Below are positions 11,801 through 14,800 of a stretch of DNA of 64,000 nt, one piece after another. The position numbers were made by a program. The stretch comes from Escherichia coli (GTDB lineage Bacteria > Pseudomonadota > Gammaproteobacteria > Enterobacterales > Enterobacteriaceae): the NCBI RefSeq assembly GCF_051903065.1, contig NZ_CP178438.1. One strand, given 5' to 3'. Within the stretch, counting starts at the first letter, position 1. The number at the start of each line of letters is the position of its first letter.

Positions 11801-14800
11801 CAGGCATGAAAGAAGGAGATTGTGCACATACACTGCCAACAGTTACGTTATCAACCATTTTCTTTCCCCTCATCCATATGAAAGTTGTAGTAATAATAAG
11901 GTTACTATTTAAATATCAACTATCAAATTTCGCTCATTTAAAGAGTTATTTGTCTTTTTACGCCATTTCCCCATCAGGTCATCCCCCTGGTAATGAGGTG
12001 GGTAAACCGCAACGTCAACGTGGGGAACAACTTCTTGTAATGGTATCCCTATAATCAATATCATCATCTTCAACAATAATGATAAAAATTAAAAAATTAT
12101 CCACTCACGGATTTTTGTTAATATTCTGTATGTGCCAGCTCTCACAAACACAGCCAATAACTAATTGTGATTCGATTCACATTTAAACAATTTCAGAATA
12201 GACAAATTTCTTGAGTATTATACTGTAACCTCGTGTCTTTCGAGGATAAGTGCATTATGAATATCTTACATATATGTGTGACCTCAAAATGGTTCAATAT
12301 TGACAACAAGATTGTCGATCACCGCCCTTGATTTGCCCTTCTGTAGCCATCACCAGAGCCAAACCGATTAGATTCAATGTGATCTATTTGTTTGCTATAT
12401 CTTAAATTTGCCTTTTGTAAAGGCCATCTCTCGTTTATTTACTTGTGTTAGTAAATGATGGTGCTTGCATATATACATGGCGAATTAATGGATATTGCAA
12501 ATGTAATATTCACAGGGATCACTGGGTAATGACTCCAACTTATTGATAGTGTTTTATGTTCAGATAATGCCCGATGACTTTGTCATGCAGCTCCACCGAT
12601 TTTGAGAACGACAGCGACTTCCGTCCCAGCCGTGCCAGGTGCTGCCTCAGATTCAGGTTATGCCGCTCAATTCGCTGCGTATATCGCTTGCTGATTACGT
12701 GCAGCTTTCCCTTCAGGCGGGATTCATACAGCGGCCAGCCATCCGTCATCCATATCACCACGTCAAAGGGTGACAGCAGGCTCATAAGACGCCCCAGCGT
12801 CGCCATAGTGCGTTCACCGAATACGTGCGCAACAACCGTCTTCCGGAGCCTGTCATACGCGTAAAACAGCCAGCGCTGGCGCGATTTAGCCCCGACATAG
12901 CCCCACTGTTCGTCCATTTCCGCGCAGACGATGACGTCACTGCCCGGCTGTATGCGCGAGGTTACCGACTGCGGCCTGAGTTTTTTAAGTGACGTAAAAT
13001 CGTGTTGAGGCCAACGCCCATAATGCGGGCTGTTGCCCGGCATCCAACGCCATTCATGGCCATATCAATGATTTTCTGGTGCGTACCGGGTTGAGAAGCG
13101 GTGTAAGTGAACTGCAGTTGCCATGTTTTACGGCAGTGAGAGCAGAGATAGCGCTGATGTCCGGCGGTGCTTTTGCCGTTACGCACCACCCCGTCAGTAG
13201 CTGAACAGGAGGGACAGCTGATAGAAACAGAAGCCACTGGAGCACCTCAAAAACACCATCATACACTAAATCAGTAAGTTGGCAGCATCACCGGATCACT
13301 GTAATTAAAATAAATGAAGGATTATGTAATGGAAAACTTTAAACATCTCCCTGAACCGTTCCGCATCCGTGTTATTGAGCCAGTAAAACGTACCACTCGC
13401 GCTTATCGTGAAGAAGCAATTATTAAATCCGGTATGAACCCGTTCCTGCTGGATAGCGAAGATGTGTTTATCGATTTACTGACCGACAGCGGCACCGGGG
13501 CGGTGACGCAGAGTATGCAGGCCGCGATGATGCGCGGCGACGAAGCTTACAGCGGCAGCCGCAGCTACTATGCGTTAGCCGAGTCAGTGAAAAATATCTT
13601 TGGTTATCAATACACCATTCCGACTCACCAGGGCCGTGGTGCAGAGCAAATCTATATTCCGGTACTGATTAAAAAGCGCGAGCAGGAAAAAGGCCTGGAT
13701 CGCAGCAAAATGGTGGCGTTCTCCAACTATTTCTTTGATACCACGCAGGGCCATAGCCAGATTAACGGCTGTACCGTGCGTAACGTCTATATCAAAGAAG
13801 CCTTCGATACGGGCGTGCGTTACGACTTTAAAGGCAACTTTGACCTTGAGGGATTAGAACGCGGTATTGAAGAAGTTGGTCCGAATAACGTGCCGTATAT
13901 CGTTGCAACCATCACCAGTAACTCCGCAGGCGGTCAGCCGGTTTCACTGGCAAACTTAAAAGCGATGTACAGCATCGCGAAGAAATACGAGATTCCGGTG
14001 GTAATGGACTCTGCACGCTTTGCTGAAAACGCCTATTTCATCAAGCAGCGTGAAGCAGAATATAAAGACTGGACCATCGAGCAGATCACCCGCGAAACCT
14101 ACAAATATGCCGATATGCTGGCGATGTCCGCCAAGAAAGATGCGATGGTGCCGATGGGCGGCTTGCTGTGCATGAAAGACGACAGCTTCTTTGATGTGTA
14201 TACCGAGTGCAGAACCCTTTGCGTGGTACAGGAAGGCTTCCCGACATATGGCGGCCTGGAAGGCGGCGCGATGGAGCGTCTGGCCGTAGGTCTGTATGAC
14301 GGCATGAATCTGGACTGGCTGGCTTATCGTATTGCGCAGGTGCAGTATCTGGTCGATGGTCTGGAAGAGATTGGCGTTGTCTGCCAGCAGGCGGGTGGTC
14401 ACGCGGCATTCGTTGATGCCGGTAAACTGTTGCCGCATATCCCGGCAGATCAGTTCCCGGCACAGGCGCTGGCCTGCGAGCTGTATAAAGTCGCCGGTAT
14501 CCGCGCGGTAGAAATTGGCTCTTTCCTGTTAGGCCGCGATCCGAAAACCGGTAAACAACTGCCATGCCCGGCAGAACTACTGCGTTTAACCATTCCGCGC
14601 GCAACATATACTCAAACACATATGGACTTCATTATTGAAGCCTTTAAACATGTGAAAGAGAACGCGGCGAATATTAAAGGGTTAACCTTTACCTACGAAC
14701 CGAAAGTATTGCGTCACTTCACCGCAAAACTGAAAGAAGTTTAATTAATACTACAGAGTGGCTATAAGGATGTTAGCCACTCTCTTACCCTACATCCTCA

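What the first reader, a model, noticed from the sequence alone, without database searches (positions are those of the whole stretch)
12516..13328. IS1 inserted in the tnaC-tnaA regulatory spacer, 36 bp upstream of tnaA
A complete IS1 with a perfect 9-bp duplication (GGATCACTG) sits between the leader peptide gene tnaC and tnaA. It separates tnaA from the tna promoter and the TnaC/Rho-dependent attenuation region, and is oriented opposite to the operon. This should abolish or deregulate tryptophanase expression, giving an indole-negative or altered phenotype, unless an outward IS1 promoter compensates. tnaC, tnaA and tnaB themselves look intact.
Basis: partly seen in the sequence, partly recalled or inferred. 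Interest (0 to 1): 0.55.

Follow-up and report, generated by a model that had tools for sequence, protein, structure and literature searches.

The report
IS1 insertion upstream of tryptophanase gene
A complete IS1 mobile element sits between the tryptophanase leader and the tryptophanase gene of this E. coli clone and probably cuts indole production strongly, but this is an ordinary, already known kind of mutation and its effect has not been measured.

Summary
A complete 768-bp IS1 lies at 12525-13292, with its genes on the minus strand. It is flanked by a perfect 9-bp duplication, GGATCACTG, and ends 36 bp before the tnaA ATG, at nt 193 of the 220-nt tnaC-tnaA spacer. The CRP site, promoter, tnaC, tnaA and tnaB are all intact. 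Removing IS1 and one duplicate copy gives a sequence 100% identical to the uninterrupted locus of a near-isogenic strain, ECNB21-M121. The window belongs to a human faecal E. coli clone from Ecuador (23CRST027/23CRST031). Only those two of 5,426 complete genomes share this junction.

The most likely effect is a polar insertion. Transcripts from the tna promoter must cross 768 nt of untranslated, C-rich antisense IS1 RNA, which invites Rho termination, so tnaA and tnaB expression should be strongly reduced. No usable outward or hybrid promoter is predicted. The phenotype is untested.

The kind of event is known: IS-damaged tna operons in Shigella, and IS5 in the same spacer of K-12 W3110.

One mildly interesting by-product emerged. 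The distal spacer is a recurrent IS1 target, with five independent simple insertions at -96 to -36. All five have this orientation, but the bias is only marginal statistically (p about 0.06).

The parts
12166..12181 (+). CRP-binding-site-like palindrome TGTGATTCGATTCACA upstream of the tna promoter; intact
   Evidence: Read directly from the sequence. It is identical to the K-12 sequence in the alignment. Assigning it as the CRP site rests on the TGTGA-N6-TCACA consensus and on published knowledge of the tna promoter.
12192..12221 (+). tna promoter candidate: TTCAGA, 18-nt spacer, TATTAT; intact. This allele differs from K-12 around the -10 hexamer.
   Evidence: Promoter scan and alignment with K-12.
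12257..12331 (+). tnaC leader peptide gene, 24 codons (MNILHICVTSKWFNIDNKIVDHRP); intact
   Evidence: ORF list. The sibling genome annotates it as WP_001364348.1, the same accession as in K-12.
12332..12524 (+). Proximal 193 nt of the 220-nt tnaC-tnaA spacer. It holds the native C-rich rut-like stretch just after the tnaC stop codon.
   Evidence: C/G ratio of 1.3-1.8 at 12253-12353. There are about 12 SNPs against K-12 and no indels.
12448..12466 (+). 19-nt spacer segment TTAGTAAATGATGGTGCTT, 16/19 identical to IS1 IRL nt 24-42. It is a possible contributor to the local IS1 hot spot; this is speculative.
   Evidence: the repeat finder pair I2. Only 1 of 500 shuffles reached 16/19.
12516..12524 (.). 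Left copy of the 9-bp target-site duplication GGATCACTG
12525..13292 (-). Complete IS1 (IS1A-like), 768 bp, with IRR at 12525-12547 and IRL at 13270-13292. Its genes are antisense to the tna operon.
   Evidence: The sibling annotation reads 'IS1-like element IS1A family transposase, programmed frameshift'.
12540..13043 (-). insB reading frame (167 aa)
   Evidence: ORF list. NCBIfam NF033558 matches profile positions 75-199.
12962..13237 (-). insA (91 aa). The A6C -1 frameshift site is at IS1 nt 307-313, window 12980-12986.
12553..12930 (+). C-rich, G-poor stretch of the plus-strand transcript through IS1, with 78-nt windows at C/G 1.05-1.6. It is proposed as a new Rho entry region.
   Evidence: Negative GC skew and C/G windows. 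That Rho actually loads here is inferred, not shown.
13258..13285 (-). IS1's own insA promoter in the IRL (CTGCCA, 16-nt spacer, TATGAT), pointing away from tnaA
   Evidence: Promoter scan.
13279..13284 (+). Outward-facing -35-like hexamer TTGGCA (5/6) in the IRL. No matching -10 hexamer lies 16-18 bp downstream.
   Evidence: The hybrid-promoter concept comes from PMC8764528.
13293..13301 (.). Right copy of the target-site duplication GGATCACTG
13302..13328 (+). Last 27 nt of the spacer, including the tnaA Shine-Dalgarno sequence (AAGGA at 13317-13321); intact
   Evidence: identical to K-12.
13329..14744 (+). tnaA, tryptophanase, 471 aa; intact
   Evidence: 469/471 identical to PDB 2C44. TIGR02617 scores 1008 bits against a cut-off of 826.
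14835..16082 (+). tnaB, low-affinity tryptophan permease, 415 aa; intact. It is co-transcribed with tnaA and so shares the polar effect.
   Evidence: NF007235 scores 925 bits against a cut-off of 497, over positions 1-415 of 415.

Best explanation
This is a simple IS1 transposition into the distal end of the tnaC-tnaA regulatory spacer of an otherwise intact tnaCAB operon. It is inherited within one human-associated E. coli clone, and it most likely acts as a polar insertion.

The proposed mechanism runs as follows. Transcription still starts at the CRP-dependent tna promoter and still passes the TnaC/Rho attenuator. Even when tryptophan-stalled ribosomes block the native rut site, RNA polymerase must then cross 768 nt of untranslated antisense IS1 RNA. 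About 350-400 nt of that RNA is C-rich and G-poor. Rho can load there and terminate transcription before tnaA.

The expected result is strongly reduced tnaA and tnaB expression, giving an indole-negative or weak/delayed reaction. Any residual expression should still be under native control.

Shown here: the anatomy, the empty site, the intact genes, the C-rich composition and the absence of a predicted outward promoter. Inferred: Rho termination inside IS1, and the phenotype.
For: The element has complete IS1 anatomy and a perfect 9-bp duplication.

Precise in-silico removal restores an allele 100% identical to ECNB21-M121. That strain differs from the window by only 3 SNPs over 16.6 kb of flanks and has an uninterrupted spacer.

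The promoter, CRP site, tnaC, Shine-Dalgarno sequence, tnaA and tnaB are all intact.

The plus-strand transcript across IS1 12553-12930 has a C/G ratio of 1.05-1.6. This is similar to the native rut region at 12253-12353, which has 1.3-1.8.

No plus-strand sigma-70-like promoter reaches 9/12 inside IS1 or at the junction. The outward -35 TTGGCA faces only 2-3/6 -10 matches at 16-18 bp spacing.

Published work shows that IS1 raises downstream transcription only when its -35 is optimally spaced from a -10 box, and that otherwise it lowers transcription or leaves it unchanged (PMC8764528).

Three pieces of established knowledge, recalled from memory and not tested here, also support this. IS1 is strongly polar in both orientations in gal and lac. 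That polarity is relieved by rho mutations. Rho terminates untranslated and antisense transcripts.

IS insertions in this operon are the known basis of indole-negative Shigella (Rezwan 2004, cited).
Against: No expression or phenotype data exist for this clone; a search for the strain name in the paper library found nothing.

Rho loading is inferred from base composition only.

Polarity is rarely absolute. Because TnaA is normally very abundant, a few percent of read-through could still give a positive Kovacs test after long incubation.

The single terminator-like hairpin on the plus strand (13152-13166) is not convincing: z = -0.61, and the minimum-energy fold does not use it. There is therefore no intrinsic terminator to guarantee a stop.

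tnaA and tnaB show no decay, which is uninformative for a recent event.
Confidence: 0.65

Rival explanations
1. Leaky or phenotypically silent insertion. Enough transcription from the tna promoter reads through IS1 for the strain to remain indole-positive. Expression would be lower but still tryptophan-inducible and catabolite-repressed.
For: No convincing intrinsic terminator lies on the plus strand within IS1. All native control elements and the tnaA ribosome-binding site are intact. The lineage has kept intact tnaA and tnaB.
Against: IS1 is classically strongly polar in either orientation (established knowledge, from memory). The insertion adds about 770 nt of untranslated RNA with a long C-rich stretch. 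The recurrence of spacer insertions alongside outright tnaA disruptions and deletions in other strains suggests they belong to one loss-of-function spectrum.
Confidence: 0.2
2. Regulatory rewiring. The IRL end of IS1, facing tnaA, provides an outward or hybrid promoter. This would give low, constitutive tnaA expression independent of CRP, tryptophan and Rho, and this orientation would be the one selected.
For: The IRL carries an outward -35-like TTGGCA (5/6) 8 bp from its tip. IS1 hybrid promoters are documented (PMC8764528 and PMC9330008). All five independent simple IS1 insertions in the distal spacer, plus four deletion-associated ones, place the IRL towards tnaA, whereas flanking regions show both orientations.
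Against: At 16-18 bp spacing the -10 candidates match only 2-3/6. The 5/6 candidates (TGTAAT at 15 bp, TAAAAT at 21 bp) are wrongly spaced, TGTAAT lacks the critical A at position 2, and a start after TAAAAT would fall in or after the Shine-Dalgarno sequence. No common hybrid-promoter geometry is shared by the -96, -61, -60 and -36 events. The orientation bias is only marginal: p about 0.06 for 5 of 5, given 9 of 14 overall.
Confidence: 0.1
3. Assembly or annotation artefact: IS1 was misplaced by the assembler and the locus is actually uninterrupted.
For: IS1 is multicopy in this lineage, with about 36 places in the sibling genomes. Repeats of this kind can be misassembled.
Against: Both junctions are identical in two independent complete assemblies as well as the window. 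The perfect 9-bp duplication is the biochemical signature of real IS1 transposition.
Confidence: 0.01

Closest known systems
IS-damaged tna operons of indole-negative Shigella (Rezwan, Lan & Reeves 2004, J Bacteriol 186:7460)
   Same: A chromosomal tnaCAB operon in the E. coli/Shigella species complex is disrupted by an insertion sequence, with expected loss of indole production. This has occurred in parallel across lineages (cited).
   Different: Here a single IS1 sits in the non-coding spacer with all three genes intact, in an E. coli clone rather than Shigella. The phenotype is unmeasured. The paper itself could not be read, so I could not check whether the same site occurs in Shigella.
IS5 insertion in the tnaC-tnaA spacer of E. 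coli K-12 W3110, and the same event in laboratory evolution
   Same: An IS element lies in the same 220-nt spacer, about 100 bp upstream of tnaA, with tnaC and tnaA intact (PMC2072959; PMC12956098, IS5 at +117/-101).
   Different: The element is different (IS5, with a 4-bp duplication), as is the site (-101 rather than -36). Those cases are laboratory strains.
Classical polar IS1 insertions in the gal and lac operons
   Same: IS1 lies between a promoter and downstream cistrons and is expected to block their transcription through Rho-dependent termination.
   Different: Those cases were measured genetically. Here polarity is inferred from base composition and from recalled established knowledge.
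IS1 hybrid promoters (Prentki 1986; afaA in ST131, PMC8764528)
   Same: The same outward -35-like hexamer in the IS1 inverted repeat faces the downstream gene.
   Different: The required -10 box at the correct spacing is absent here, so activation is not expected.
Other IS1 insertions in the tna 5' region of natural E. coli genomes (USMARC-51688, 2024CK-00474, E70, 300081, 1506D011 and others)
   Same: IS1 is in the same orientation, 24-60 bp further upstream in the same spacer, with 8-9-bp duplications.
   Different: These are independent events, with different sites, spacer alleles or IS1 variants, in unrelated strains.

Membership tests
IS1 (IS1-family insertion sequence) | Length of about 768 bp with imperfect terminal inverted repeats of about 23 bp | tested here: met
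   The element spans 12525-13292, 768 bp, with 23-nt arms 78% complementary. It is 99.87% identical to a K-12 IS1 copy.
IS1 (IS1-family insertion sequence) | insA and insB' frames joined by an A6C -1 programmed frameshift | tested here: met
   The 91-aa and 167-aa ORFs are intact and the A6C motif is at IS1 nt 307. NCBIfam NF033558 covers both halves.
IS1 (IS1-family insertion sequence) | Target-site duplication of 8-9 bp | tested here: met
   A perfect 9-bp GGATCACTG flanks the element and occurs nowhere else in the window.
tnaCAB operon with TnaC/Rho-dependent attenuation | CRP-dependent promoter; 24-codon tnaC with Trp12, Asp16 and Pro24; C-rich rut region after the stop codon; spacer of about 220 nt; then tnaA and tnaB | tested here: met
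   All elements are present and collinear with K-12. TnaC is identical to the K-12 peptide, and the spacer is 220 nt once IS1 and one duplicate copy are removed. The spacer is physically interrupted at nt 193.
IS-inactivated tna operon (indole-negative Shigella type) | An insertion sequence within the tna operon | tested here: met
   IS1 lies between tnaC and tnaA.
IS-inactivated tna operon (indole-negative Shigella type) | Loss of indole production | not testable with these tools
   No phenotype record was found for 23CRST027 or 23CRST031. This needs a Kovacs or HPLC assay.
IS1-generated hybrid promoter | Outward -35 hexamer in the terminal inverted repeat | tested here: met
   TTGGCA (5/6) at 13279-13284, 8 bp from the IRL tip.
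IS1-generated hybrid promoter | A -10 hexamer in the flank at about 16-18 bp spacing | tested here: not met
   GTAATT, TAATTA and AATTAA score 2, 2 and 3 of 6. The scan tool finds no plus-strand promoter here.
Rho-dependent polar insertion | A long untranslated, C-rich and G-poor transcript segment between promoter and gene | tested here: met
   C/G ratio of 1.05-1.6 over about 380 nt of the plus strand in IS1. The only long plus-strand ORF (12574-12864) has no Shine-Dalgarno-like sequence that I could see upstream of its ATG in the sequence read.
Rho-dependent polar insertion | Downstream expression restored by Rho inhibition | not testable with these tools
   This requires a bicyclomycin or rho-mutant experiment.

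The most novel reading that the evidence does not exclude
The distal 60 bp of the tnaC-tnaA spacer (-96 to -36) may be an orientation-specific IS1 hot spot in E. coli. Five independent simple insertions, and four deletion-associated ones, all place the IRL towards tnaA, whereas both orientations occur just upstream of the promoter and inside tnaA.

If real, this would mean one of two things. Either only this orientation gives the selected outcome, whether complete silencing or a particular low constitutive level of tryptophanase. Or the IS1-IRL-like 19-mer in the spacer (12448-12466) steers both the site and the orientation of IS1 insertion.
Probability: 0.15. Interest if true: 0.4.

Novelty: new member of a known kind. 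Interest (0 to 1): 0.2.

Why it matters
If the insertion silences tnaA as expected, this clone would score indole-negative or weak in the test routinely used to identify E. coli.

The clone carries type III effector genes, so the change may also matter biologically. Loss of self-made indole is a recurrent change in Shigella, and indole is reported to dampen virulence-gene expression in attaching-and-effacing E. coli (from memory). This could therefore be a small pathoadaptive step.

It adds no new mechanism. Its practical value is a natural near-isogenic pair for a simple test, 23CRST027/031 against ECNB21-M121.

The wider survey gives a usable figure. Only about 0.3% of complete E. coli genomes (18 of 5,426) match only part of the stretch from just upstream of the tna promoter to the start of tnaA, and 14 of those 18 are IS1-associated or deletion cases identified here. 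Another 0.4% lack a match altogether.

Tried and rejected
1. Hybrid or outward promoter. The tool scan and a relaxed scan found nothing usable on the plus strand, so this was rejected as the main explanation.
2. Intrinsic terminator inside IS1 on the plus strand. The single weak candidate at 13152-13166 is not supported by folding.
3. Known RNA families across 11800-13600. There were no Rfam matches at E <= 0.1.
4. Rezwan et al. 2004. The paper is not held by DOI or by PMC id, so the exact Shigella insertion sites could not be compared.
5. A paper on strains 23CRST027/031. None was found.
6. Published statements on the phenotype of the W3110 IS5 spacer insertion and on the meaning of the tna mutations in the evolution study. 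Nothing useful was found.
7. A library search for IS1 polarity literature. It led nowhere, so polarity rests on recalled classical work.
8. A metagenome scan for IS1-end/tnaA junctions in either orientation at gaps of 23-83 bp. It gave zero hits, so the orientation sample could not be enlarged.
9. Assembly artefact. Rejected because of three concordant assemblies and the perfect duplication.
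Full report
**1. Observation**

Reading 11900-13700 shows an element beginning GGTAATGACTCCAACTTATTGAT at 12525 and ending ...AAGTTGGCAGCATCACC at 13292, exactly 768 bp. The repeat finder reports the 23-nt terminal inverted repeats, 12525-12547 and 13270-13292, which are 78% complementary. It also reports a perfect 9-bp direct repeat, GGATCACTG, at 12516-12524 and 13293-13301. That 9-mer occurs nowhere else in the 64-kb window, against 0.28 copies expected by chance.

On the minus strand lie a 91-aa ORF (12962-13237) and a 167-aa ORF (12540-13043). 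An A6C frameshift motif sits at IS1 nt 307. Both ORFs match the NCBIfam IS1 transposase model, covering profile positions 1-81 and 75-199. The element is 99.87% identical to the IS1 copy of K-12 AB1157, and it is the only IS1 in the window.

The neighbouring genes are as follows:
- tnaC is at 12257-12331. Its peptide, MNILHICVTSKWFNIDNKIVDHRP, carries the same accession as in K-12.
- The tnaA ATG is at 13329, 36 nt after the last IS1 base.
- TnaA is 469/471 identical to the solved E. coli enzyme 2C44, with substitutions D221E and S447N.
- TnaA and TnaB exceed their NCBIfam equivalog cut-offs over full length.

**2. Context and authenticity**

The window is collinear with E. coli 23CRST027 (NZ_AP045789; human faeces, Santo Domingo, Ecuador). 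There are 2 mismatches in the first 48,385 bases, after which the resistance region differs. The sibling 23CRST031 carries the same junctions but has IS903B in espY4. The window therefore represents a third member of one clone, and the insertion is inherited rather than an assembly error.

Among 5,426 complete E. coli genomes, only these two share both junctions at 100%.

Deleting IS1 plus one duplicate copy in silico gives a 500-nt sequence that is 100% identical to strain ECNB21-M121. That strain differs from the window by 3 SNPs over about 16.6 kb of flanking DNA and has the same TnaA and TnaB alleles. It carries its IS1 in the neighbouring ShET2/EspL2 effector gene instead. This is a clean filled-site/empty-site pair.

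The spacer without the insertion is 220 nt, as in K-12. It has about a dozen SNPs and no indels relative to K-12, and the insertion lies after spacer nt 193.

**3. What the insertion leaves intact and what it changes**

The following are all unchanged:
- the CRP-site-like palindrome (12166-12181);
- the promoter candidate (12192-12221);
- tnaC;
- the C-rich region immediately after the tnaC stop codon;
- the tnaA Shine-Dalgarno sequence (13317-13321).

The change is that 777 bp are interposed between the attenuator and tnaA. IS1's own genes and its insA promoter (minus strand, 13285 to 13258) point away from tnaA.

**4. Most likely mechanism**

Transcripts from the tna promoter enter IS1 at the IRR end and are antisense to insAB.

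The plus strand has negative GC skew from about 12560 to 12960. In 78-nt windows its C/G ratio is 1.05-1.6, with 22-29 C per window. The native rut region has 1.3-1.8. The only long plus-strand ORF in that stretch (12574-12864) has no Shine-Dalgarno-like sequence that I could see upstream of its ATG in the sequence.

Untranslated, C-rich RNA is the substrate for Rho. IS1 is classically polar in both orientations, and rho mutations relieve that polarity; this is established knowledge recalled from memory and not tested here. I therefore infer Rho-dependent termination inside IS1 that tryptophan induction cannot overcome, giving strongly reduced tnaA and tnaB expression.

No convincing intrinsic terminator is present. 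The one candidate is not supported by folding (z = -0.61).

**5. Can IS1 supply a promoter?**

IS1 carries an outward -35 box and can form hybrid promoters, but only when that box is correctly spaced from a -10 box. Otherwise downstream transcription falls or is unchanged (PMC8764528; review PMC9330008).

Here the outward TTGGCA (5/6) at 13279-13284 faces GTAATT, TAATTA and AATTAA at 16, 17 and 18 bp. These match 2, 2 and 3 of 6. The 5/6 candidates lie at 15 bp (TGTAAT, which lacks the A at position 2) and at 21 bp (TAAAAT). A start after TAAAAT would fall in or after the Shine-Dalgarno sequence. Neither the tool scan nor a relaxed scan finds a plus-strand promoter inside IS1 reading towards tnaA. 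I rate promoter provision at about 0.1.

**6. Population survey**

An uninterrupted stretch from just upstream of the tna promoter through tnaC and the spacer to the start of tnaA is present in 5,386 of 5,426 complete genomes. Of the rest, 18 match only partly and 22 do not match at all.

Chimeric junction queries in both orientations and locus mapping identified independent IS1 events near the 5' end of the operon. The table lists simple insertions with a duplication; positions are relative to the tnaA ATG.

| Region | Same orientation as here | Opposite orientation |
|---|---|---|
| Distal spacer | -96 (1506D011 group, an IS1 variant); -61 (E70, an IS1 variant); -60 (USMARC-51688); -60 (2024CK-00474, a different spacer allele); -36 (this clone) | none |
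| Upstream of the promoter (-418 to -496) | N61 | OX030701 (same site as N61); G3/10; HCP4S3_I4 |
| Inside tnaA (+53 to +114) | 98194; CUPF06; STEC384/379 | H1827/12 (same site as CUPF06); CAVP819 |

Four IS1-adjacent deletions also have this orientation:
- 300081: promoter, tnaC and most of the spacer lost.
- GPEC1446: promoter and the 5' end of tnaC lost.
- AH65/AH62: -500 to +13 lost.
- K-12 AB1157: tnaA to mid-tnaB lost.

Two other IS1 copies upstream of the promoter lack a target duplication and were left out of the table. They are UID2309220007 (same orientation, next to a truncated ShET2/EspL2 gene) and 38A23CPO011 (opposite orientation, next to yidZ, suggesting a rearrangement).

The probability that all five spacer events share one orientation, given 9 of 14 overall, is C(9,5)/C(14,5) = 0.063 by my calculation. 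That is suggestive but not significant. A metagenome scan for further junctions returned nothing.

The spacer also contains a 19-mer (12448-12466) that is 16/19 identical to IS1 IRL nt 24-42, and only 1 of 500 shuffles reached that match. The -96 event's duplication lies inside this 19-mer. Whether it guides insertion is speculation.

**7. Comparison with what is known**

IS insertions as the cause of indole-negative Shigella were described by Rezwan, Lan and Reeves in 2004. I could only reach the citation, not the text. The sequenced K-12 W3110 carries IS5 in the same spacer and another IS5 in tnaB (PMC2072959). A recent evolution experiment recovered IS5 at +117/-101 in the spacer and IS1 within tnaA (PMC12956098).

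The present case is thus a new allele of a known class. It meets all tested defining features of IS1 and of a tnaCAB operon. It fails the spacing requirement for an IS1 hybrid promoter. The phenotype that defines 'IS-inactivated tna operon' cannot be tested here.

**8. Verdict**

This is a real, cleanly characterised and ordinary IS1 insertion. It is most probably a polar, expression-reducing mutation of tryptophanase and TnaB (confidence 0.65). The rivals are:
- a leaky insertion that leaves the strain indole-positive (0.2);
- promoter rewiring by the IRL end (0.1);
- an assembly artefact (0.01).

Novelty: a new member of a known kind. Interest is about 0.2. The only element that might repay more work is the recurrent, single-orientation IS1 targeting of the distal spacer.

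Noticed in passing
L002, L004, L005, L006, L007 (homologous to window 12456-12524): The distal tnaC-tnaA spacer is a recurrent IS1 target in unrelated E. coli. The -60/-61 site has been hit at least four times independently, with different spacer alleles, IS1 variants and 8- or 9-bp duplications, and -96 once. All have the IRL facing tnaA.
   Followed up: partly
window 12448-12466: The spacer segment TTAGTAAATGATGGTGCTT is 16/19 identical to IS1 IRL nt 24-42, and only 1 of 500 shuffles reached that match. The -96 insertion's duplication, TGATGGTGC, lies inside it. Relevance to targeting is unknown.
   Followed up: partly
window 9696-11873 (minus strand); L023: A 720-725-aa ShET2/EspL2-family type III effector gene sits between mnmE and tnaC, where K-12 has none. 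In the near-isogenic strain ECNB21-M121 this gene is split by another IS1 at window 10413-10421. No NCBIfam model matches the protein.
   Followed up: partly
window 48386-64000, compared with L003 and L010: The window matches neither RefSeq sibling exactly. It keeps an intact Tn3-family transposase (48267-51431), where the siblings have IS26 copies, a Tn3 transposase that L010 annotates as truncated at both ends, and (in L010) an estX-aadA1-qacL-sul3 region. 23CRST031 additionally has IS903B in espY4. The clone is diversifying mainly through IS activity.
   Followed up: partly
window 42829-62549: A mobile-element block lies next to glmS (60720-62549). It holds an uninterrupted 319-aa integron integrase (42829-43788), dfrA1, two serine-protease genes annotated trypsin-like serine protease and S1 family peptidase, TEM-1 with Tn3 resolvase and transposase, and five minus-strand ORFs (52859-60562), one of which the sibling annotates as Tn7-like TnsE. 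NCBIfam gave no hits for those five ORFs.
   Followed up: partly
window 22177-29048: Further type III effector genes lie close by, annotated in the sibling genome as espY4, a 'type III effector protein' and a pentapeptide-repeat protein. The long polar fimbria (lpfA2) operon at 34244-40405 has a frameshifted chaperone gene (39013-39700).
   Followed up: no
L009 (E. coli K-12 AB1157, NZ_CP076404): The laboratory strain AB1157 has an IS1 joined to tnaA codon 3 on one side and mid-tnaB on the other, an IS1-associated deletion of essentially all of tnaA. This assembly should therefore be tryptophanase-negative.
   Followed up: partly
L005 (300081), L008 (GPEC1446), L017 (AH65): These are IS1-adjacent deletions that remove the tna promoter and tnaC, and in AH65 the first 13 nt of tnaA. 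They leave the IRL next to the remaining tnaA sequence. In 300081 an intact tnaA sits 61 bp from the IRL with no native promoter at all.
   Followed up: partly
L011 versus L015; L020 versus L022: Identical IS1 target sites have been used in both orientations in different strains: -446 upstream of tnaA with duplication AAAATTCT, and tnaA +65 with duplication CACTCGCGC or TACTCGCGC. IS1 is thus not intrinsically orientation-locked at hot spots in this region.
   Followed up: yes
window 12205-12226: This clone's tna promoter allele differs from K-12 around the -10 region (GAGTATTATACTGTAACC versus GAGTGTAATAATGTAGCC). It is a natural allele shared with ECNB21-M121. Its effect on promoter strength is unknown.
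   Followed up: no
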